Source: an uncultured Candidatus Saccharibacteria bacterium
GTDB lineage: Bacteria; Patescibacteriota; Minisyncoccia; Phycocordibacterales; WO2-35-19
Length of the DNA stretch: 64,000 bases
Assembly: GCA_964464975.1 (NCBI GenBank)
Contig: CAYXKV010000001.1
Span: forward strand, 457 to 64,456
Reading direction: 5' to 3'
This document shows, piece by piece, positions 13,004-46,613 of the stretch; position 1 is the stretch's first letter, and every line of letters begins with the position of its first letter. Position numbers and translations under genes: made by a program. The notes beneath the pieces are model-generated. The model was given only the letters and a program-made list of their open reading frames with translations, had not been told where the DNA came from and did not search any database.

Positions 13004-13258
13004 ATGAAAATTCACAAAGTTGCCCGCGAGGTTAAGGAACAGATCCTCAACCGCATTAAAAACGAAGGGGTCTCAATTGCTAAAGCGGCAGAAGAACATG
13101 GCATATCTGACCGAACCATCCATGGCTGGCTCAGGAAAAAAGTTGAAGGGTATCCGGTCATGTCAGACGTGCTCAAGCTCAAACGAGAGAACACCGCTCT
13201 CAAGGAGCTCGTGGGTGAGATCACCTTGAAGCTTTCTGAAACCCAAAAAAAGAATTGA
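13004..13258 (+). CDS. IS3-family transposase OrfA (HTH)
   Basis: 84-aa protein with an HTH (GVSIAKAAEEHGISDRTIHGWLRK) and a coiled-coil C-terminus. Confidence 0.75.
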   Translation: MKIHKVAREVKEQILNRIKNEGVSIAKAAEEHGISDRTIHGWLRKKVEGYPVMSDVLKLKRENTALKELVGEITLKLSETQKKN

Positions 13259-14064
13259 TACAAGAAGAGAGCAAAACTTCCAAAACTCTGAGGGCCACAG
13301 AGTTTGGGGTCTCGAGGCAAGGTTTGTACTACAAACCCAAGAAACCGGACAAGGACTGGCAGCTCAAGTGCCGAATCGAAGAAGTACTTAGAACTCCGGG
13401 CAAACACTCGTACGGCTCCCGAAGAATCGCCTGGGAACTCAATATGAACAGGAAGCCGATCAAACGGATAATGAACCTTTTTGGCATCAAACCATATCGT
13501 CGCAGAGGCGGAAAATGGCTTAATACAAAGAAAATCGAGCACAAGTTCCCTAATCTCTTACTCACTGAATATCCATCGTGTCCCAACAAAATCTGGGTCT
13601 CGGATTTTACCTTAATCCAGTATTACAACCAAAAGATATACCTCTGCACCGTGATGGATTTGTGGAACCGAGAAATCGTTGGTCTCTCCGTTTTGACCAA
13701 CCACAGTCTTCAGCTTGTACTCAACGCTTTCCTCTCCGCTCTCCACAATCATCCGAGACCGGAGATCTTCCACTCCGACAACGGATCCGAATACGATGCC
13801 AAAGCTTTCGTCCAGATGCTAACTGAACTCAATGTTAAAATCTCCCGCTCCAAACCAGGTTGTCCTTGGGAGAATAGCTATCAAGAGTCATTCTACGACA
13901 AATTCAAAATTGATCTGGGAGACCCCAACCGCTTCGATTCCCTTGGCGAGCTCATCTACAACATCTATCATCAAATATATTTCTACAATCACGAGAGAAT
14001 CCATTCTGCTCTTAAAATGTCGCCGATTCAATTCACAGTTTTTTCCCAAAATGCTAAAATGTAA
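13255..14064 (+). CDS. IS3-family transposase OrfB (DDE integrase)
   Basis: IWVSDFT..., HSDNGSEY and WENSYQESF form the DDE triad. The frame is -1 relative to orfA. Confidence 0.8.
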   Translation: MIQEESKTSKTLRATEFGVSRQGLYYKPKKPDKDWQLKCRIEEVLRTPGKHSYGSRRIAWELNMNRKPIKRIMNLFGIKPYRRRGGKWLNTKKIEHKFPNLLLTEYPSCPNKIWVSDFTLIQYYNQKIYLCTVMDLWNREIVGLSVLTNHSLQLVLNAFLSALHNHPRPEIFHSDNGSEYDAKAFVQMLTELNVKISRSKPGCPWENSYQESFYDKFKIDLGDPNRFDSLGELIYNIYHQIYFYNHERIHSALKMSPIQFTVFSQNAKM

Positions 14065-22219: not shown

Positions 22220-22633
22220 ATGACCACAATGAAAGAAAAAAACAAAGATCGATATGTTGAGGCGGTCGGCCGAAGAAAGACTTCGTCCGCGAGAGTGCGC
22301 ATCACACCGGCATCCAAGACAAGCTACATCATAAACGGACGTGATCTGGCTTCATATTTCCCAACTGAAGATTTGAGAAACATAGTTGAAGAAGCTATAG
22401 GCAAATCAAAAGCAAAAAATTTTGCGGTATCAGTCAAAGTCGCTGGCGGAGGCATACACTCCCAAGCGGAAGCGGTGCGCCACGGCATAGCCCGAGCTTT
22501 AGTGGAACATGACGAAACCCTCAAAGAGATAGTCAAAAAATCAGGTTTTTTGAAGCGTGATCCACGTGCCAAAGAACGCCGCAAATTCGGCCTGAAGAAG
22601 GCAAGGAAGGCCCCGCAATGGTCTAAGCGTTAG
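22220..22633 (+). CDS. rpsI: 30S ribosomal protein S9 (start uncertain between 22202 and 22229)
   Basis: GRRKTSSARVRITP...GGGIHSQAEAVRHGIARAL...KAPQWSKR. Confidence 0.85.
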   Translation: MTTMKEKNKDRYVEAVGRRKTSSARVRITPASKTSYIINGRDLASYFPTEDLRNIVEEAIGKSKAKNFAVSVKVAGGGIHSQAEAVRHGIARALVEHDETLKEIVKKSGFLKRDPRAKERRKFGLKKARKAPQWSKR

Positions 22634-22816
22634 TAAACAAGAACAATTCGGCTATTGTTTATTGTCAGTATACGTTAAGCTTCCGTAGTCCCGCACCAAG
22701 CTTTGCTTTGGTGCTGGGGCAAGAAAAGCGCCGCAGTGGAGCAAGAGGTAATACTTTCAATTGAAGTCGAATTTTAGAGAATAGATCTGCTTGCACTCTA
22801 TTTTCAAAATTGATAA

Positions 22817-22846
22817 CATTCCAATATTCTGCAGAATATGAGAATG
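22817..22846. promoter_or_regulatory. 30-bp palindromic operator-like site, copy 1 (cattcCAATATTCTGCAGAATATgagaatg), overlapping the regulator's start codon
   Basis: Near-perfect dyad centred on CTGCAG. Also found at 23121-23150 and 35826-35855. Confidence 0.5.
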
Positions 22847-23128
22847 AAAAGAATTAACGTAACTAAAACATCAAAACAGCTCGAAAGACACATAAAAGGA
22901 GTGTCGAATCATTGGCGTATTGAGATTTTAGTCCAGGTAGCAAATGAAGAGGGCCTGTCACTCGACGAAATATGCGAACGGGTAAAAGGTAATATCAAGA
23001 CTATATCTGAGCACACCAAAAAACTTCAAACGGCGGGGCTTTTGAACAAGAAATATCATGGAAAATCAGTTTCCCATTCACTTTCGCCGTACGGCAAGGT
23101 TTTTATTGATTTTCTGAGTTCATTCTAA
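22838..23128 (+). CDS. ArsR/SmtB-family winged-HTH transcriptional regulator (96 aa)
   Basis: HTH segment EICERVKGNIKTISEHTKKLQTAGLL matches the ArsR recognition helix pattern. Located directly upstream of grpE-dnaK-dnaJ. Confidence 0.6.
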   Translation: MRMKRINVTKTSKQLERHIKGVSNHWRIEILVQVANEEGLSLDEICERVKGNIKTISEHTKKLQTAGLLNKKYHGKSVSHSLSPYGKVFIDFLSSF

Positions 23129-23150
23129 TATTCTGCAGAATATTGGAATA
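23121..23150. promoter_or_regulatory. 30-bp palindromic operator-like site, copy 2 (cattcTAATATTCTGCAGAATATTGGAATa), between the regulator gene and grpE
   Basis: Dyad symmetry; 13 of 15 half-site matches. Confidence 0.5.
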
Positions 23151-23181: not shown

Positions 23182-23778
23182 ATGAAAGACAAAGAAGAAA
23201 AGGATCAAAAAAATAAGAGCGAGGATAAGAGTTTCGATGATGTGGTTTTTGAGGGTGAAGAGGAACAGGGCAATCCAAGCTCTCTCATAAAAAAACTAAG
23301 AGTAAAGGTAAGAGAGCTTGAGGAAAAAAACCAAGAATATTTGACCGGATGGCAGAAAGAGAGGGCTGAGAGCGTCAATTTGCGCAAACGGCTCGAGGAC
23401 GAGAAGAAGGAGTTTGCCAAGTTCGCCAAGGAGGACATAGCCACGGAAATCATACCCGTCCTTGATTCTTTCGAGTCGGCCTTTAAAAACAAAGAAACGT
23501 GGGAGAAAGTTGATAAGAACTGGAGAGTAGGGATTGAGTACATACACAGCAAGCTTGTAAATGTTCTATCAAACCATGGGGTAACGGTTATTTCACCTTT
23601 GGGAGAGAAGTTTGATCCACAAAGAGACGAAGCGGTCGAGATGGTGTACACGGACAACAAGGACGACGACCAAAGGGTGCTTGAGGTCATAAGTTTGGGT
23701 TATAAACTGCAAGACAAAATCATCAGAGCACCAAAAGTAAAGGTTGGGCAATGTGACAAAAATCAGGTAAAAATTTAA
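23182..23778 (+). CDS. grpE: Nucleotide exchange factor GrpE
   Basis: Coiled-coil N-terminus plus the GrpE core (IPVLDSFESAF...). Confidence 0.85.
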   Translation: MKDKEEKDQKNKSEDKSFDDVVFEGEEEQGNPSSLIKKLRVKVRELEEKNQEYLTGWQKERAESVNLRKRLEDEKKEFAKFAKEDIATEIIPVLDSFESAFKNKETWEKVDKNWRVGIEYIHSKLVNVLSNHGVTVISPLGEKFDPQRDEAVEMVYTDNKDDDQRVLEVISLGYKLQDKIIRAPKVKVGQCDKNQVKI

Positions 23779-23802: not shown

Positions 23803-25668
23803 ATGAGTAAAATAATAGGAATCGATCTAGGTACTACAAACAGCGCGGTTGCAGTGATGGAAGCGGGTAACCCGAAAATCATAGAAAATAGCGAGGGAGC
23901 TCGCACCACACCGTCGATAGTAGCCATTTCAAAAACCGGAGAGAGACTGGTAGGCCTTCTCGCCAGGCGCCAAGCAGTCACCAACCCGAGGAACACCGTT
24001 TTCGGCATCAAGAGATTCATAGGACACAATTTTGACGAGGATGCGGTGCAAAAAGACATGAAAACAGTACCTTTCGAAATATCCAAGTCAGAAACCAACG
24101 GAGTATTAGTCAAAATGAATGATAAAAATTATAGGCCTGAGGAGATTTCAGCAATGATTTTAGGCAAACTCAAGGCTGATGCCGAAGCCAAGCTTGGCGA
24201 AAAGATTACAGAAGCCATCATTACAGTACCTGCATATTTCAACGACGCTCAAAGGAAAGCTACCAAGGACGCTGGCCAAATCGCCGGCCTTGACGTGAAG
24301 AGGATCATCAATGAACCTACGGCAGCCGCCCTCGCATATGGATTTAATAAAAAAAAGGACGAACAGATAGCGGTTTTCGATTTCGGAGGAGGCACATTTG
24401 ATATTTCAATTCTCGAAGTTGGAGATGATGTCGTAGAAGTCAAAGCGACGGACGGCGATTCCCACCTTGGAGGCAAGGATATCGATCAAAAGATTATCCA
24501 CTGGCTCGCCGATGAGTTCAAAAAGGAAAGTGGCATTGACATTACTAAAGACCCTCTTGCTCTTCAGCGACTTGATGAGGCTGCTGAGAAAGCAAAAATA
24601 GAGCTGTCAACCGCGATGGAATCTGAAGTAAACATTCCGTTTATCACCTCCGATTCTTCCGGTCCAAGGCATCTCCTTATCAAGATGTCACGCGCAAAAC
24701 TCGAGGAGCTTGCAGAGGAGTTCATAGAAAGAGCCATGGAAATCACTAAGCGAGCCATCGAATCATCGCCGTTCAAAGTCGAAGATATTGACGAAATTGT
24801 GCTGGTTGGCGGGCAGACAAGGATGCCGAAGATTGCGGAAGAAGTTAAGAAGTTTTTCGGCAAGGAACCCAACAAGTCGATCAACCCTGACGAAGTGGTA
24901 GCTCTCGGCGCAGCCATCCAGGGCGGAATCATAGCCGGAGACGTCAAAGATATTTTGCTACTTGATGTCATACCGCTTTCACTCGGTATCGAGACCATGG
25001 GCGGAGTGGCGACCAAGCTCATAGACCGCAATACCACTATTCCAGCTTCCCGCTCACAGATTTTTTCTACTGCGGCTGATAACCAGACAAGCGTAGAGAT
25101 CCACGTTGTTCAGGGCGAGAGGCCTCTTGCCATAGACAACAGAACTTTGGGCAGATTTATCCTCGACGGCATACCTCCTGCTCCGCGCGGCGTGCCGCAA
25201 GTTGAAGTCACTTTTGACATTGACGCAAACGGCATCCTAAACGTCAAAGCCAAAGACAAATCAAGCGGCAAGGAGCAGTCAATAAAAATTGAGGGCAGCT
25301 CTGGCTTATCAAAAGAGGAAATAGAAAAAATGAAAAAAGACGCCGAGGCCCATGCCGAAGAGGACCAGAGGAAAAAAGATCTTGCTGAAGCGCGCAACGT
25401 AGCCGAGCAAACTGTATATACCGCTGAAAAGGCACTAAAAGACGCTGAAGGCAAAATTACTGATGAAATTAAGAAGGTGGTTCAGGAGAGAATTGATGAG
25501 GTCAAAAAAGTAAAGGACGGCTCCAACTTGGATGCCATAAAGACTGCGATGGAAAACCTCTCCCGCGAAATGCAAAAAATTGGCGAGCACATGCAAAAAG
25601 GGAACAGCGAACAAAAAGAAACCGGAAGTGAGGATAAAAAAGCCGGGGAAGACGAGACAAAATCCTAA
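23803..25668 (+). CDS. dnaK: Chaperone DnaK (Hsp70)
   Basis: [26 protein letters not shown]. Confidence 0.95.
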
Positions 25669-25688
25669 AAATTTGCTATAATAAAGCC

Positions 25689-26771
25689 ATGAAAGACTAT
25701 TACTCAATACTCGGAGTAGACAAAAAGGCTTCAAAGGATGAAATCAAGAAAGCTTTCAGGAAGCTTGCTCACGAGTACCATCCTGACAAAAAAGGAGGCA
25801 ACGCTGAGAAATTCAAGGAAGTGAACGAGGCATACAGTGTCTTATCCGATGACAAGAAGAGGTCTCAGTACGATACTTTCGGTAATGTTTATGGGCAGGC
25901 ACAGCGAGGCGGCTTTCAGGGCAATTGGGAGGATATCTTCAAGCAGGCCGGGTTTGGGCAGGGCGGGTTTGATTTTACCCAGGGTGAAAACGACTTCGGA
26001 TGGGACCTTGGCGACATTTTCGGCGAATTTTTTGGAGGCAGGAAACAAGCAAAGAGAGGCAGGGATATTTCGATTGATATAGAGCTTTCATTTGAGGAAT
26101 CGGTCTTTGGAGCCGAGCGAAACATATTGCTTAACAAAGTTTCGGTCTGCGAGGTTTGCAACGGAAGCGGTGCCAAAAAGGGTTCCGAGAAGATTGAATG
26201 CAAAACCTGCAACGGCAAAGGAAAGATCAGAGAGGTGAAGCGGTCGATTTTTGGCTCTATAGAGATGAGCCGAGGTTGCGAGACTTGCGGCGGGGAAGGC
26301 AAGGTTCCGAAGGAAAAGTGCTCGTCCTGCGGAGGTTTGGGAATTTTGAAAAAGGAAAAGGAAGTAAAAATTAAAATTCCTGGAGGCATTGATAACGGCG
26401 AGATGATCCGCCTCTCCGGCGAGGGCGAGGCCCTTAGAGGCGGAGTAAGCGGCGACCTTTACATCAAGGTTCATGTTAAAAGGCACAAGATATTCAAGAA
26501 AGAGGGCAGTGACTTAGTCATGTTCCTCGAGGTCAAGCTCTCCGACGCCCTTCTCGGTGCTGAACACAAAATAGAAACTTTAGACGGCCCCGTCACTATA
26601 AAAATTCCAGAGGGCACAGAGACGGGCGACGTTCTTTCGATCAAGGGCAAAGGTGTCCCGTTCGGATCAAAACGTGGCGACATATTAGCGAAGGTTCGCG
26701 TAATTATGCCGAAGAAACTCTCCAAATCCTCCCGCGAGGCCATAGAGAAGCTCAAGGCTGATGGAATTTGA
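25689..26771 (+). CDS. dnaJ: Chaperone DnaJ
   Basis: J-domain (DYYSILGV...HPDKK), G/F region and four CxxCxGxG zinc repeats. TGCTATAAT sits 6 nt upstream of the ATG. Confidence 0.9.
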   Translation: MKDYYSILGVDKKASKDEIKKAFRKLAHEYHPDKKGGNAEKFKEVNEAYSVLSDDKKRSQYDTFGNVYGQAQRGGFQGNWEDIFKQAGFGQGGFDFTQGENDFGWDLGDIFGEFFGGRKQAKRGRDISIDIELSFEESVFGAERNILLNKVSVCEVCNGSGAKKGSEKIECKTCNGKGKIREVKRSIFGSIEMSRGCETCGGEGKVPKEKCSSCGGLGILKKEKEVKIKIPGGIDNGEMIRLSGEGEALRGGVSGDLYIKVHVKRHKIFKKEGSDLVMFLEVKLSDALLGAEHKIETLDGPVTIKIPEGTETGDVLSIKGKGVPFGSKRGDILAKVRVIMPKKLSKSSREAIEKLKADGI

Positions 26772-33179: not shown

Positions 33180-34814
33180 ATGACCCAAAAAGAGGCGCTT
33201 GATATTTTAAAGACTGGGAGGAATGTTTTCCTGACAGGTGCGGCTGGTAGCGGCAAAACCCATGTCATACGCGAATATATAAATTTTCTCAAAGGACTTG
33301 GGGCGAACATAGGAATCACCGCTTCGACCGGCATAGCCGCGACCCACATGGGCGGCATAACTATTCACTCCTGGTCAGGCATAGGCATAAGAGATTCTCT
33401 CAAAAAAGAAGAGATAACAGAGATTGCAGAAAAGCAGCACGTCAAACGGAAAGTCCGGGACGCTAAAGTGCTTCTGATCGACGAGATCTCGATGCTTCAC
33501 CATTTCCGGCTTGATATGGTTGATGTAGTGCTTAGGGAAATCAAAGGAGTAAGCGAGCCTTTTGGCGGTATGCAGGTTGTTTTGGTCGGAGATTTTTTTC
33601 AGTTGCCGCCTGTATTCAGGCGCGGAGAGAGAGGGGGGAGATTTGCGTACCACTCAAACGCCTGGAAAGATCTTTCCCCTAAGGTCTGCTACCTATCCGA
33701 ACAGCACAGGCAAAATGATGCTCAGTTTATCAATATTTTAAATTCCATAAGGCTCTCCAAATCGCCGGATGAAATTTTAAAATCCCTCCAAGTGAGGCTC
33801 GGTGTTAAGCCCCGCGACATCCACACCAGGCTATATTCGTTGAACAAGGACGTTGATTTTGAAAACGAAATCGAGCTTCAGAAAATCAAAGGTCCAGCCA
33901 CAGAGTTTCAAATGATGAGCCGCGGCAGGAAGAGTCTTGTCGAAGCACTCAAGAAAAGCTGTCTCGCCCCAGAAAATCTGCGATTGAAAGGGGGGGCTAA
34001 GGTGATGTTCGTTAAAAACAACTTTGAGGAAGGCTATGTGAACGGCACTATGGGCACAGTCGTAGAGTGCAGAAGCAAAAGCATAAAGGTAAGAACCACT
34101 TCGGGAGAGACTATAGACGTCGAGACAGCAAGCTGGGCCATTGAGGAGAACGGCAGAGTGCTCGCTGAGATCATACAATACCCTCTACGGCTCGCCTGGG
34201 CCATTACCATTCACAAGAGCCAGGGTATGTCTCTTGATTCGGCCCTTATTGATCTGTCAAATTCTTTTGAGAAAGGTATGGGCTATGTCGCCCTGTCGAG
34301 AGTGCGTTCGCTTGAAGGACTTTTTCTTAAGGATATCAATCCTAAAGCCCTTGAGGTCGACCCTGATGTGCAGACGGTGGATGTCAAATTCAGGGAAGAT
34401 TCAAGCGCCAATTCTTTCCATGTTAGGAACATGAGCAAAGAGAAACTGCGCAGACTTCATAGCGAATTTGAAAATAATGTAAGGGTCGAGAAGAAAGACA
34501 GGAAGCTAAGCACAGTGGAAGAAACCAAACTCATGCTCGACTCTGGCGCCAGCGTCAAAGATATCGCCAAGGCGCGCCGCCTCAAGCCGGGCACCATTAT
34601 CGAACATATAGAAGAAATCAAAAGAGAAGAGCCCGGATACAATATAAGAAACTTGCATCGCACCATCCCAGAGGCCAAGTTCAGGCAAATTTACAGCGCT
34701 TTCCGCAAGACCGGGATTTCGCCGGGTGGCGAGTATCGCCTGTCTCCGGTTAAGGAGCTTTTGGGCTCCAAGTACTCCTACGACGACCTCCGCCTAGTCC
34801 GGTTGTTTTTGTAG
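33180..34814 (+). CDS. PIF1-like ATP-dependent DNA helicase with a C-terminal HTH
   Basis: Walker A (GAAGSGKTH), Walker B (LLIDEISM), and the Pif1 signature GDFFQLPPV. Confidence 0.75.
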   Translation: MTQKEALDILKTGRNVFLTGAAGSGKTHVIREYINFLKGLGANIGITASTGIAATHMGGITIHSWSGIGIRDSLKKEEITEIAEKQHVKRKVRDAKVLLIDEISMLHHFRLDMVDVVLREIKGVSEPFGGMQVVLVGDFFQLPPVFRRGERGGRFAYHSNAWKDLSPKVCYLSEQHRQNDAQFINILNSIRLSKSPDEILKSLQVRLGVKPRDIHTRLYSLNKDVDFENEIELQKIKGPATEFQMMSRGRKSLVEALKKSCLAPENLRLKGGAKVMFVKNNFEEGYVNGTMGTVVECRSKSIKVRTTSGETIDVETASWAIEENGRVLAEIIQYPLRLAWAITIHKSQGMSLDSALIDLSNSFEKGMGYVALSRVRSLEGLFLKDINPKALEVDPDVQTVDVKFREDSSANSFHVRNMSKEKLRRLHSEFENNVRVEKKDRKLSTVEETKLMLDSGASVKDIAKARRLKPGTIIEHIEEIKREEPGYNIRNLHRTIPEAKFRQIYSAFRKTGISPGGEYRLSPVKELLGSKYSYDDLRLVRLFL

Positions 34815-35825: not shown

Positions 35826-35855
35826 CATTCTTATATTCTGCAGAATGTTGGAATG
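35826..35855. promoter_or_regulatory. 30-bp palindromic operator-like site, copy 3 (cattcTTATATTCTGCAGAATGTTGGAATg), upstream of trpS
   Basis: Same dyad as at 22817 and 23121. Extended -10 TGCTAATAT follows at about 35900-35917. Confidence 0.45.
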
Positions 35856-35923: not shown

Positions 35924-36940
35924 ATGGGAAAAACTTCAGACAGCAAGAGTGCCCGAACTATACTTTCAGGGGTAAAGCCAACGGGTAGGCCCCACTTGGG
36001 AAATTATTTTGGAGCCATGAGGCAGTTTGTGGAGCTTCAGAATGGCAGCAACCCTGACGTCGAGGTCGGCACTTCATATTTTATGATAGCCGATTATCAT
36101 GCTTTGAATTTCGTCCAGAATGCAGAAGAGATGCGCAGACTCTCGCTTGGAGTAGCTCTCGATTTTTTGGCTATCGGCCTCAATCCGGAGAGGTCAGTTA
36201 TTTTTAAACAGTCAGAAGTTCCCGAGCACACCGAGCTTGCTTGGATCTTCGACTCGATCACAACTATTCCTTATCTCAAGCGCGCCCACGCTTACAAGGA
36301 CGCGACAGCAAAAGGCGGAGAAGAAGATGTTTCCGCAGGCACATTCACGTACCCCATGCTTATGGCTGCAGATATTTTGCTATACGACACCGACCTTGTC
36401 CCTGTGGGTCAAGACCAGAAGCAGCACATCGAATACGCTCGTGACACCGCCGAGAAGTTCAATAGGATTTTTGGCGCTTCGAATTCACTCACCGCAGGCA
36501 ATATTTTCAAATTACCTGATGAATATATATTGAAAGATGTCGAAATCGTACCCGGCACAGACGGCCGCAAAATGAGCAAAAGTTATGGCAACACCATAAG
36601 CCTCTTTGCGGAAGAGAGCGAGATCGAGGAGAAGGTTATGGGTATTGTTACGGACTCAGAGGGGGAAAGGCCAGAAAATGTTTATAAGATCCATAGGCTG
36701 GTAAGGGACGAGGCGGAGCTTCAAAAAATCTATGAGGAGAACAGGGGCAAGTATAAAATGATCAAAGAAATACTCATAGACGATCTTAAAAACTTCATCC
36801 GACCACTCAGGGAAAAGAGGGGGGAGATTTCAAGGGATTTGAGTTTTGTGGAAAGAGTGCTTAAAAAAGGCAGTGAAAAGGCCCGCGCAGCGGCGGGCCT
36901 CAAAATGGGATTGGTTCGGAGTGTTATCGGCGTTCGATAG
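35924..36940 (+). CDS. trpS: Tryptophanyl-tRNA synthetase
   Basis: Class I fold: GVKPTGRPHLGNYFGA, KMSKSYGN. Confidence 0.9.
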   Translation: MGKTSDSKSARTILSGVKPTGRPHLGNYFGAMRQFVELQNGSNPDVEVGTSYFMIADYHALNFVQNAEEMRRLSLGVALDFLAIGLNPERSVIFKQSEVPEHTELAWIFDSITTIPYLKRAHAYKDATAKGGEEDVSAGTFTYPMLMAADILLYDTDLVPVGQDQKQHIEYARDTAEKFNRIFGASNSLTAGNIFKLPDEYILKDVEIVPGTDGRKMSKSYGNTISLFAEESEIEEKVMGIVTDSEGERPENVYKIHRLVRDEAELQKIYEENRGKYKMIKEILIDDLKNFIRPLREKRGEISRDLSFVERVLKKGSEKARAAAGLKMGLVRSVIGVR

Positions 36941-39343: not shown

Positions 39344-39367
39344 TCAAAATACTGCTATAATTGCGCC

Positions 39368-46464: not shown

Positions 46465-46613
46465 AAAATTACCTCGATTCGTAACACTCCCTTGATCTTT
46501 CTCTTTAAAATAAAGGGGGAAGGTGTTATGAATTATGTCTCAGGGTAAGAGGGGGGTTCTGGGGTGTCATGAAAGGCGTCGAAAAACGATCAATTTTTTG
46601 CTAAAATGTCGAT

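What the first reader, a model, noticed from the sequence alone, without database searches (positions are those of the whole stretch)
22817..23150. ArsR-type mini-regulator flanked by twin 30-bp palindromes sits where HrcA/CIRCE normally precede grpE-dnaK-dnaJ
Seen in sequence: a 96-aa winged-HTH ArsR/SmtB-like gene is bracketed by two near-identical dyads, CATTC-N-AATATTCTGCAGAATAT-N-GAATG, at 22817-22846 and 23121-23150. The first overlaps its own start codon and the second lies 30 nt before grpE. No CIRCE element (TTAGCACTC-N9-GAGTGCTAA) and no hrcA are present. Inference: an autoregulated repressor controlling the chaperone operon, i.e. a non-HrcA heat-shock control system.
Basis: partly seen in the sequence, partly recalled or inferred. 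Interest (0 to 1): 0.7.

Follow-up and report, generated by a model that had tools for sequence, protein, structure and literature searches.

The report
Twin-operator ArsR-like repressor before grpE-dnaK
A tiny DNA-binding repressor gene, flanked on both sides by copies of its own 30-bp binding site, sits in front of the grpE-dnaK-dnaJ chaperone genes of this candidate-phyla-radiation bacterium. The same self-flanked cassette occurs in hundreds of related species next to unrelated genes, so it looks like a portable autoregulatory module recruited here rather than a dedicated heat-shock regulator.

Summary
A 94/96-aa winged-helix gene (22838/22844-23128) is bracketed by two 30-bp dyads, and a third copy lies at 35826-35855 before trpS. 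All three score 44-46 bits, against at most 4.3 bits in shuffles.

The protein has a high-confidence ArsR/SmtB fold but none of that family's known sensor sites.

The dyad-gene-dyad layout is found across Patescibacteria (519 species genomes, 80 examined). One dyad lies in the promoter and one on or just after the stop codon. The dyad sequence changes together with the protein subfamily, which is strong comparative evidence that the protein binds it and represses itself.

The chaperone link is local:
- Only the window's closest relatives (regulator 70-74% identical) have rpsI-cassette-grpE-dnaK-dnaJ.
- None of the 80 other species do, and their downstream genes are almost all different.
- Equally close DnaK lineages have rpsI-grpE with no cassette, no dyad and no CIRCE.
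- More distant lineages have CIRCE-hrcA.

In this genome grpE lacks the usual leaderless promoter, so it probably depends on the autoregulated regulator promoter and passage through dyad 2. dnaJ has its own promoter.

Heat responsiveness is untested and is not supported at family level. Verdict: a new variant of a known kind, of moderate interest.

The parts
22810..22837 (+). Promoter-like element of the regulator: TTGATA-16 nt-CAGAAT. It places the transcript start at about A of ATG 22844, which would give a leaderless mRNA.
   Evidence: 9 of 12 matches. The spacing of -10 hexamer, 6 nt, then ATG is the usual rule in this genome. The -10 hexamer is the inner right hexamer of dyad 1.
22817..22846 (.). 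Dyad 1 (operator 1): CATTCCAATATTCTGCAGAATATGAGAATG. It covers the promoter spacer, the -10 hexamer, the transcript start and the start codon of the regulator.
   Evidence: 45.9 bits. An equivalent upstream dyad is present in 62 of 72 related loci.
22844..23128 (+). Regulator gene: 94 aa from ATG 22844, or 96 aa from ATG 22838. It is a minimal ArsR/SmtB-fold winged helix-turn-helix protein.
   Evidence: Pfam HTH_5 25.3 bits against a cut-off of 22. PDB profile hits to HlyU, CadC, ArsR and CzrA. AlphaFold2 pLDDT 92.4 with the helix/strand order a1-a2-a3-aR-b1-b2-a5. Foldseek TM 0.84 to CadC. Gene call.
23121..23150 (.). Dyad 2 (operator 2): CATTCTAATATTCTGCAGAATATTGGAATA. It overlaps the regulator's last codons and its stop codon, and ends 31 nt before grpE.
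   Evidence: 44.5 bits. In 60 of 68 related loci the downstream dyad overlaps the stop codon or starts within 12 nt after it.
23182..23778 (+). grpE. It has no promoter-like or terminator-like site between dyad 2 and its ATG, so it is probably co-transcribed with the regulator.
   Evidence: Pfam GrpE 5.3e-39..
23803..25668 (+). dnaK. A TATAAT lies 14 nt upstream of its ATG, so it may have a promoter of its own.
   Evidence: Pfam HSP70 4e-251. Upstream sequence.
25689..26771 (+). dnaJ, with its own TGCTATAAT-6 nt-ATG leaderless-type promoter at 25674-25688.
   Evidence: Pfam DnaJ, DnaJ_C and DnaJ_CXXCXGXG..
35826..35855 (.). Dyad 3, a solitary operator copy: CATTCTTATATTCTGCAGAATGTTGGAATG. It lies 17 nt after the stop of an rlmI-like methyltransferase gene and 68 nt before trpS.
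   Evidence: 45.1 bits. trpS and the methyltransferase are identified.
35924..36940 (+). trpS, a possible third target. Its own TGCTAATAT-6 nt-ATG promoter lies 56 nt after dyad 3, so direct occlusion of that promoter is not evident.
   Evidence: NCBIfam TIGR00233 246 bits against a cut-off of 177..

Best explanation
The gene encodes a minimal ArsR/SmtB-fold repressor. It belongs to a compact family found across the Patescibacteria.

Binding site. The protein binds a 30-bp 14-2-14 dyad made of four CATTCT-like hexamers, most likely as two dimers (inferred).

Cassette. In nearly every genome that has it, the gene is bracketed by two copies of this operator. One copy lies in the gene's promoter and one lies on or just after its stop codon (shown by comparison).

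Mechanism in this window (inferred):
- Dyad 1 covers the spacer, the -10 hexamer, the transcript start and the start codon of the regulator's leaderless promoter, so the protein shuts off its own synthesis.
- Dyad 2 is the only element between the regulator and grpE. grpE lacks the extended -10, 6 nt, ATG promoter that is typical of this genome.
- grpE, and read-through into dnaK and dnaJ, therefore depend on the autoregulated promoter. They also depend on transcription passing a repressor bound at dyad 2, which would act as a roadblock or a second operator.
- dnaJ certainly, and dnaK possibly, have extra promoters of their own.

Origin. The cassette is not tied to a fixed position. It reached the rpsI|grpE junction only in this narrow lineage, replacing grpE's own promoter.

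Signal. What releases the repressor is unknown. It is not one of the known ArsR-family metal or thiol sites. Heat or protein-folding stress is possible but unsupported.
For: Fold and family.

Operator significance.

Cassette conserved:
- 519 species genomes encode the protein.
- Of 72 loci with a recognisable regulator ORF, 62 have the upstream dyad, 66 the downstream dyad and 57 both.
- The downstream dyad overlaps the stop codon or lies within 12 nt after it in 60 of 68 loci.

The protein binds the dyad:
- Subfamily A (KTISEHT, ending KTF) goes with CATTCT/YATTCT hexamers. Subfamily B (KTIGEHTRRL, GKFVEH, ending KSFQ) goes with CATCCT/CAAACT hexamers.
- Loci L047 and L074 carry both paralogues in tandem, each flanked by its own operator type.
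- The two dyads of one locus share 26.7 of 30 positions, against 21.8 of 30 between loci.
- Among window, L163 and L164, the dyads are islands of conservation in otherwise diverged intergenic DNA.

Repressor geometry:
- In the window, TTGATA-16-CAGAAT lies inside dyad 1 with ATG 22844 six nt downstream.
- In other clades a -10-like box follows the upstream dyad within 30 nt in 25 of 41 loci, against 5 of 41 on the mirrored side.

grpE dependence:
- No promoter-like or terminator-like site lies between 23129 and 23181.
- 22 of 56 ORFs in the window have a -10-like hexamer 5-8 nt before the start codon; grpE does not, and dnaJ does.

Local recruitment:
- L163 and L164 share rpsI-cassette-grpE-dnaK-dnaJ.
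- L083-L088 and other close DnaK relatives have rpsI-grpE without it.
Against: - No binding, transcript or expression data exist. All regulatory claims are comparative or sequence-based.
- dnaJ has its own strong promoter-like site and dnaK has a TATAAT 14 nt upstream. Control of the whole chaperone set may therefore be weak.
- Dyad 3 is centred about 83 nt upstream of the probable trpS transcript start, which is not a classical repressor position.
- The closest sequence relative with a structure, HlyU, is named a transcriptional activator.
- No conserved ligand or sensor site was found, so how repression would be relieved is unexplained.
- Only the best 80 of 519 genome loci were inspected.
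Confidence: 0.6

Rival explanations
1. Dedicated heat-shock repressor. In this lineage the protein has taken over the role of HrcA/CIRCE. Heat or unfolded protein inactivates it and so induces grpE-dnaK-dnaJ, in the manner of HspR/HAIR in bacteria or the ArsR-like Phr in archaea.
For: - Position directly before grpE, kept in three sampled lineages with DnaK 86-91% identical and regulator 70-74% identical.
- No hrcA or CIRCE here, although distant relatives have them at this place.
- There is a precedent for an ArsR-like winged-helix heat-shock repressor that binds a palindrome: Phr of Pyrococcus furiosus (PMC10746257). A weak profile hit to PDB 2p4w appears; that this entry is Phr is from my own knowledge.
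Against: - The family is not linked to chaperones: 0 of 80 other species, and no chaperone family recurs among 69 dyad-downstream genes.
- The third dyad precedes trpS.
- Equally close lineages run grpE-dnaK-dnaJ without the cassette and without any dyad.
- dnaJ has its own promoter.
- groESL, clpB and hsp20 could not be examined because they are not in the window.
Confidence: 0.15
2. Mobile or selfish cassette. The two dyads are primarily ends or recombination sites of a small element that moves around the genome carrying the winged-helix gene. Any effect on grpE would be incidental.
For: - The position differs between lineages while the dyad-gene-dyad unit stays intact: rpsI|grpE here, murG|gltX in L167, and many other places.
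- Presence is patchy within one tight DnaK clade.
- The two dyads of a locus evolve in concert, including shared asymmetries in the same orientation.
- Arrays of dyad-gene-dyad-gene occur (L012, L064, L065, L072, L076).
- Island-type neighbours recur: RhuM/Fic, S24 peptidase, PIF1 helicase, NYN, a DNA methylase.
- A diverged duplicate of the rpsI 3' end lies at the junction.
Against: - No recombinase or transposase recurs next to the cassette.
- Copy number is low: 3 dyads in 64 kb, and none in 677 kb of DnaK loci.
- The dyads sit at fixed positions relative to promoters and the stop codon.
- The most conserved residues map to the recognition helix and the wing, and operator variants track protein subfamilies.
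- No relatives occur in viral contigs.
- The central spacer is 2 bp and the protein has no catalytic domain.
Confidence: 0.12
3. Activator or anti-silencer. Bound at about -20 to -60 of extended -10 promoters, the protein would help RNA polymerase rather than block it, as its nearest solved relative HlyU is described to do.
For: - HlyU is the best PDB sequence match.
- In most clades the upstream dyad lies over the -35 and spacer region of promoters that lack a -35 box.
- In L167 dyad 2 spans roughly -64 to -35 of the gltX promoter.
Against: - In the window, L163 and L164, dyad 1 overlaps the -10 hexamer, the transcript start or the start codon. That position is only compatible with repression.
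- Dyad 2 lies inside a transcription unit.
- Extended -10 promoters do not need an activator.
Confidence: 0.08
4. RNA-level or generic repeat. The palindromes would act as RNA hairpins (terminators or attenuators), or be a common intergenic repeat unrelated to the gene.
For: - As RNA they fold to -8.9 to -12 kcal/mol (z -2.6 to -3.3).
- Dyad 2 is followed by TTTTATT.
Against: - These stabilities are what any AT-rich palindrome gives.
- The scan found no terminator-like site at these positions and Rfam has no match.
- There are only three copies in the window, and all relatives keep them at the regulator.
- The recurring asymmetric forms (CATTCCAAC...GTGAGAATG) give C.A and A.G mismatches in the RNA.
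- Covariation with the protein subfamily is not expected for a protein-independent hairpin.
Confidence: 0.03

Closest known systems
ArsR/SmtB-family autorepressors with 12-2-12 inverted-repeat operators (SmtB, CzrA, CadC, ArsR; the closest by sequence is HlyU)
   Same: - The same fold, a1-a2-a3-aR-b1-b2-a5 (TM 0.75-0.84).
- Profile E-values of 1e-7 to 1e-5.
- A small protein that is the first gene of the unit it controls.
- A long imperfect inverted repeat with a 2-bp centre overlapping its own promoter.
   Different: - No conserved Cys and no alpha-5 Asp/His/Glu ligands, so none of the known sensor sites is present.
- The operator is 14-2-14, built of four hexamers.
- A second operator overlapping the stop codon is conserved across the phylum.
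- The downstream gene is not a metal or sulfur resistance gene and is not conserved.
- The score is below the NCBIfam metalloregulator cut-off (34.6 against 55 bits).
HspR/HAIR control of the dnaK operon (Streptomyces, Helicobacter, Deinococcus). This comparison is from established knowledge.
   Same: - The repressor gene is physically part of the dnaK-grpE-dnaJ cluster.
- Inverted-repeat operators are used and the system is autoregulated.
   Different: - HspR is a MerR-type protein encoded last in the operon. Here an ArsR-type protein is encoded first.
- There is no HAIR motif.
- The HspR regulon is made of chaperone genes across species, whereas this family's targets are not.
HrcA/CIRCE
   Same: The regulator occupies the slot directly upstream of grpE-dnaK-dnaJ. 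More distant Patescibacteria have CIRCE plus a short HrcA in that slot.
   Different: There is no HrcA domain and no CIRCE. The protein family and operator are unrelated, and there is no evidence of GroEL dependence.
Phr, the archaeal heat-shock regulator of Pyrococcus furiosus
   Same: An ArsR-like winged-helix repressor that recognises a palindrome and negatively regulates heat-inducible genes (PMC10746257). There is a weak profile match to PDB 2p4w (E 6.8e-4). That 2p4w is Phr is from my own knowledge.
   Different: - The PDB 2p4w chain is about 200 aa (that this chain is Phr, and that it carries a C-terminal dimerisation domain, is from my own knowledge). This protein is 94 aa.
- Phr has a coherent heat-shock regulon, which this family does not show.

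Membership tests
ArsR/SmtB family | Winged helix-turn-helix fold a1-a2-a3-aR-b1-b2-a5 | tested here: met
   The AlphaFold2 model has pLDDT 92.4 and exactly this order of elements. Foldseek finds CadC at TM 0.84, followed by HlyU, ArsR, CzrA, SqrR and SmtB.
ArsR/SmtB family | Sequence match to the family profile above its curated threshold | tested here: met
   Pfam PF01022 HTH_5 scores 25.3 bits against a cut-off of 22. The PDB profile search gives HlyU at 8.9e-8. The narrower NCBIfam NF033788 'metalloregulator' model is not reached: 34.6 bits against 55.
ArsR/SmtB family | Binds an imperfect inverted repeat overlapping its own promoter (autorepression) | tested here: inconclusive
   The comparative evidence is strong. 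The dyads are conserved at the gene in most of 72 loci and covary with the protein subfamily, and dyad 1 overlaps the -10 hexamer and the start codon.
ArsR/SmtB family | A known inducer-sensing site: alpha-3 or alpha-3N Cys, alpha-5 Asp/His/Glu, or the HlyU/BigR Cys pair | tested here: not met
   No Cys is conserved (at most 31 of 117 sequences at any column). Alpha-5 has no conserved His, Asp or Glu. The conserved His residues are at positions 16, 23, 57 and 78.
ArsR/SmtB family | Homodimer formed through a1/a5 | not testable with these tools
   Only a single-chain model could be made.
HrcA/CIRCE heat-shock system | HrcA protein (PF01628) | tested here: not met
   The regulator has no HrcA hit. 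tblastn with ten Patescibacterial HrcA sequences finds nothing in the window (best E 0.28). One of those queries was confirmed as HrcA by Pfam.
HrcA/CIRCE heat-shock system | CIRCE operator TTAGCACTC-N9-GAGTGCTAA upstream of the chaperone genes | tested here: not met
   There are no matches with up to 3 mismatches in 64 kb. The same scan finds perfect CIRCE in distant relatives.
HspR/HAIR system | MerR-type repressor and HAIR operator CTTGAGT-N7-ACTCAAG | tested here: not met
   There is no MerR hit. HAIR-like matches are at chance level and lie far from the operon (3 found, 2.7 expected).
Dedicated heat-shock regulon (any family) | Operators precede chaperone or protease genes across species | tested here: not met
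   None of the 80 other species has the cassette at grpE/dnaK/dnaJ. No dyad occurs in 677 kb of DnaK loci. No chaperone family recurs among 69 dyad-downstream genes.
Mobile repeat or cassette systems (REP/RAYT, MITE, integron-like) | An associated recombinase or transposase, and many dispersed copies | tested here: not met
   No recombinase cluster recurs among 738 neighbouring ORFs. There are three copies in 64 kb. There are no relatives in viral contigs.

The most novel reading that the evidence does not exclude
The dyad-gene-dyad unit is a portable regulatory cassette of the Patescibacteria. It is a bare ArsR-fold repressor that carries its own promoter-operator in front and a second operator on its stop codon.

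Wherever the cassette lands, it imposes negative-feedback control, or a protein roadblock, on the gene behind it. In this lineage it replaced the constitutive leaderless promoter of grpE and so rewired chaperone expression.

These genomes have few transcription factors, few terminators and mostly leaderless genes. In that setting this could be one of the main ways regulation is gained and lost. It would also be the first transcription factor and operator code for this phylum that can be tested at the bench.
Probability: 0.3. Interest if true: 0.7.

Novelty: new variant of a known kind. Interest (0 to 1): 0.55.

Why it matters
Candidate-phyla-radiation bacteria are mostly uncultured and have very few transcription factors, and I found no regulatory site described for this family. 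This finding gives a concrete and testable pair: a 94-aa protein and a 30-bp operator.

The pair is conserved and co-evolving across hundreds of species, so it can be checked with synthetic protein and DNA without culturing the organism.

It also shows how a chaperone operon that has lost HrcA/CIRCE can come under a quite different repressor. The layout itself, with operators bracketing the repressor gene and one of them on the stop codon, is not typical of ArsR-family regulators.

The specific idea of a new heat-shock system is attractive but remains unproven.

Tried and rejected
- CIRCE, HAIR and CtsR boxes are absent or at chance level.
- No HrcA homologue is in the window.
- Rfam finds nothing in the region.
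- An RNA hairpin or terminator reading gives only modest stabilities, and no terminator-like site is found.
- Defence and phage libraries give only weak hits to generic winged-helix domains of Csa3/CARF and a few PHROGs. There are no relatives in IMG/VR.
- I looked for a conserved regulon. Of the first 66 dyad-downstream genes, 62 were unrelated singletons, and a motif-variant-aware list gave the same picture.
  - The most frequent neighbour is TspO/MBR, in 10 of 80 loci.
  - A loose 'damage repair' theme can be read into the list (msrA, uvrB, polA, ogt, radC, nitroreductase, dnaK). It is not statistically supported.
- I considered DNA looping between the two dyads. Their spacing is 299-432 bp (median 333), and I saw no obvious helical periodicity by eye. 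This was not formally tested.
- I looked for remnants of the cassette in relatives that lack it. None were found.
- Four literature searches on this family or motif found nothing relevant.
Full report
**1. What is in the sequence**

The window carries a ribosomal-protein block (rpsM, rpsK, rpsD, rpoA, rplQ, rplM, rpsI) ending at 22633. It is followed by a small ORF (22838-23128), then grpE (23182-23778), dnaK (23803-25668) and dnaJ (25689-26771).

The window matches JGI metagenome contig Ga0394875_0000572. There the small gene is called from ATG 22844 and is 94 aa long.

They match each other at 26 of 30 positions.
- The first contains ATG 22838 and ends in ATG 22844.
- The second overlaps the last codons and the TAA stop of the small gene, and ends 31 nt before grpE.
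It sits between an rlmI-like methyltransferase gene and trpS.

The element is best written as four hexamers, CATTCY-N2-YATTCT-NN-AGAATR-N2-RGAATG, which is a 14-2-14 dyad.

It is far beyond chance. The 18-nt core gives 3 hits against 0.09 expected. With a weight matrix built from relatives, the three sites score 44.5-45.9 bits, nothing else in 64 kb reaches 8 bits, and shuffles peak at 4.3 bits.

There is no CIRCE, no HrcA homologue and no CtsR box in the window. HAIR-like matches are at chance level.

**2. The protein**

Pfam places the protein in HTH_5/ArsR, just above the cut-off. NCBIfam's metalloregulator model is matched but below its cut-off.

A profile of 117 family members finds HlyU, CadC, ArsR and CzrA among solved structures, with E-values of 1e-7 to 1e-5.

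The AlphaFold2 model is confident (pLDDT 92.4). It shows the canonical a1-a2-a3-aR-b1-b2-a5 arrangement, and Foldseek returns ArsR/SmtB proteins at TM 0.75-0.84.

The invariant residues lie in a1, at the start of a2, along the recognition helix, and in the wing up to the start of a5 (the SPYG motif). No Cys is conserved, and a5 has none of the metal ligands of SmtB or CzrA. It is therefore a bare DNA-binding module with no recognisable sensor.

**3. The family and its invariant layout**

Homologues are about 60% identical, 88-100 aa long, and come from Parcubacteria-type lineages and a few other Patescibacteria.
- 519 species-representative genomes encode one.
- At 50% clustering there are 217 clusters with E <= 1e-10.

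In the 80 loci fetched, the twin-dyad layout recurs. Loci without the exact ATTCT-NN-AGAAT core carry variant dyads, and the same variant appears on both sides of the gene.

A scan using each locus's own motif covered 72 loci with a recognisable regulator ORF. It found an upstream dyad in 62, a downstream dyad in 66 and both in 57.

The downstream dyad starts 16 or 7 nt before the end of the ORF in 33 of 68 cases. It starts within 12 nt after the ORF in 27 more. In many proteins the C-terminal residues (..F stop, or ..FSHS stop) are actually encoded by the left arm of the dyad.

Two protein subfamilies have two operator types:

| Subfamily | Protein signature | Operator hexamers |
|---|---|---|
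| A | KTISEHT, ending KTF | CATTCT / YATTCT |
| B | KTIGEHTRRL, GKFVEH, ending KSFQ | CATCCT / CAAACT |

Loci L047 and L074 encode both subfamilies in tandem, each with its own operator type.

The two dyads of one locus are more alike (26.7 of 30) than dyads of different loci (21.8 of 30). This covariation is the main evidence that the protein binds the dyad.

**4. Repressor geometry**

In most clades a -10-like box, often TGnTATAAT, follows the upstream dyad within 30 nt. This holds in 25 of 41 loci, against 5 of 41 on the mirrored side. The dyad therefore covers the -35 and spacer region.

In the window, the scan finds TTGATA-16-CAGAAT. The -10 hexamer lies inside dyad 1, and ATG 22844 lies six nt further on.

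That spacing is the rule in this genome:
- 22 of 56 ORFs have a -10-like hexamer 5-8 nt before the start codon, often as TGnTAnAAT-N6-ATG.
- Only 4 of 56 ORFs have a Shine-Dalgarno-like sequence.

The regulator is thus probably made from a leaderless transcript whose promoter, transcript start and start codon all lie within dyad 1. That arrangement is only compatible with repression.

**5. Relation to the chaperone genes**

No promoter-like or terminator-like site lies between the regulator and grpE, and grpE lacks the -10-N6-ATG arrangement. grpE is therefore most simply read as co-transcribed with the regulator, with dyad 2 acting as an internal operator or roadblock.

dnaJ has its own TGCTATAAT-N6-ATG, and dnaK has a TATAAT 14 nt upstream. 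The regulator's grip on the whole set may therefore be partial.

**6. Is the chaperone link general?**

It is not.
- None of the 80 other species has grpE, dnaK or dnaJ beside the cassette. One locus has a dnaK fragment about 3 kb away.
- The genes behind the downstream dyad include msrA, gltX, gpmI, uvrB, engB, polA, fmt, metK, ogt, tfoX-like, radC, acylphosphatase, nitroreductase, TspO and many membrane or unknown proteins.
- Of the first 66 such genes, 62 are singletons.
- The most frequent neighbour, TspO/MBR, occurs in 10 of 80 loci.

The link does hold for the window's nearest relatives. The two closest homologues (74% and 70% identical, with DnaK 91% and 86% identical) have rpsI-dyad-regulator-dyad-grpE-dnaK-dnaJ. 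In those loci the dyads are islands of conservation in diverged intergenic DNA.

At 68-69% protein identity the cassette is elsewhere. In L167 it lies between murG and gltX, whereas the window has murG and gltX adjacent with no cassette.

The 80 metagenome loci closest in DnaK show the following:
- Lineages with DnaK 70-88% identical have rpoA-rplQ-rplM-rpsI-grpE-dnaK-dnaJ with no cassette, no dyad and no CIRCE. In L083, grpE starts 5 nt after rpsI.
- Lineages with DnaK at or below 69% identity mostly have a perfect CIRCE followed by a short HrcA before grpE.

No dyad scoring 10 bits or more occurs in 677 kb of these loci.

In a rough neighbour-joining tree of DnaK, loci with the cassette are interleaved with loci without it inside one tight clade. 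Presence at this junction is therefore patchy, through several losses or gains.

**7. Interpretation**

The best-supported reading has four parts:
- an autoregulated ArsR-fold repressor with a conserved double operator;
- a cassette-like unit whose position in the genome is not fixed;
- recruitment in this lineage to the rpsI|grpE junction, where it supplies the only recognisable control of grpE;
- an unknown releasing signal.

The heat-shock reading remains possible for this lineage. It has precedents in HspR/HAIR and in the archaeal ArsR-like Phr (PMC10746257). It gains no support from the family's other targets, and none of it could be tested here.

The mobile-element reading explains the variable position and the concerted evolution of the two dyads. 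It lacks a recombinase and has a low copy number.

RNA-level readings are weak.

**8. Novelty and limits**

Four literature searches found no description of this family or motif. The fold, the autorepression and the long inverted repeat are classical ArsR/SmtB features.

The unusual points are:
- the phylum-wide bracketing of the gene by two operators, one of them on its stop codon;
- the absence of any known sensor site;
- the unconstrained position in the genome;
- in this lineage, the placement in front of a chaperone operon that has lost HrcA/CIRCE.

The limits are these. All regulatory statements are comparative. Only 80 of 519 genome loci were inspected. The rest of this organism's genome, including groESL and any hrcA, is not visible. 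The DnaK tree is crude.

Noticed in passing
window 22704-22751: A second, diverged copy of the last 14 or so codons of rpsI (CFGAGARKAPQWSKR*) lies 70-118 nt after the real rpsI stop (FGLKKARKAPQWSKR*, 22586-22633). Part of it is 85% identical to the rpsI 3' end of relatives L083 and L088. It looks like a rearrangement scar at the junction between rpsI and the cassette, and it is absent from L163 and L164.
   Followed up: partly
whole window, e.g. 25674-25688 (dnaJ), 46599-46613 (gltX), 39353-39367 (aspS): Gene starts in this genome mostly lack a Shine-Dalgarno sequence (4 of 56 ORFs have one). 22 of 56 ORFs have a -10-like hexamer 5-8 nt before the start codon, often as TGnTAnAAT-N6-ATG. This implies widespread leaderless mRNAs made from extended -10 promoters.
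   Followed up: partly
L104-L161 (for example L147 3053-3802, L114 3365-4128): More distant Patescibacteria keep a perfect CIRCE followed by an unusually short HrcA of 230-250 aa, directly before grpE-dnaK. Pfam confirms HrcA at 3e-15 for L147.
   Followed up: partly
L083-L103, L116, L162: In the window's wider clade, grpE-dnaK-dnaJ directly follows the rpoA-rplQ-rplM-rpsI block, with a gap of only 5 nt in L083. No CIRCE, hrcA or dyad is present, so the chaperone genes appear appended to a ribosomal-protein operon or driven by simple constitutive promoters.
   Followed up: partly
L047 2366-4279; L074 3033-4279; L059: Some genomes carry two paralogous regulators in tandem, one of subfamily A and one of subfamily B, each flanked by its own operator variant. 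This gives arrays of dyad-gene-dyad-gene-dyad.
   Followed up: partly
window 33180-34814; L005 1257-2822; L025 3665-5029: A PIF1-like helicase lies about 1 kb upstream of dyad 3 in the window. It is the gene directly behind the cassette in two other species and a neighbour in five loci.
   Followed up: no
L009 4315-4716 and nine other loci: TspO/MBR (a tryptophan-rich sensory protein) is the most recurrent neighbour of the cassette, in 10 of 80 loci, and sits directly behind a dyad in at least four or five. This may hint at a tetrapyrrole or oxidative-stress connection, which was not tested.
   Followed up: partly
L167 4001-4405 versus window 46465-46613: There is a reciprocal pair of junctions. 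In L167 the cassette lies between murG and gltX. The window has the same mraY-ftsW-murG-gltX block with no cassette and no dyad, and instead carries the cassette at rpsI|grpE.
   Followed up: yes
window about 13004-14064: An IS3-type transposase pair (HTH_Tnp_1 plus rve) lies about 9 kb upstream of the cassette, between a peptidase M3 gene and an HD-domain gene.
   Followed up: no
L163 5974-6003 and 6278-6307: In the closest relative, both dyads carry the same unusual inner right hexamer, AGAAAC instead of AGAATR. This is an example of the two operators of one cassette changing together.
   Followed up: partly
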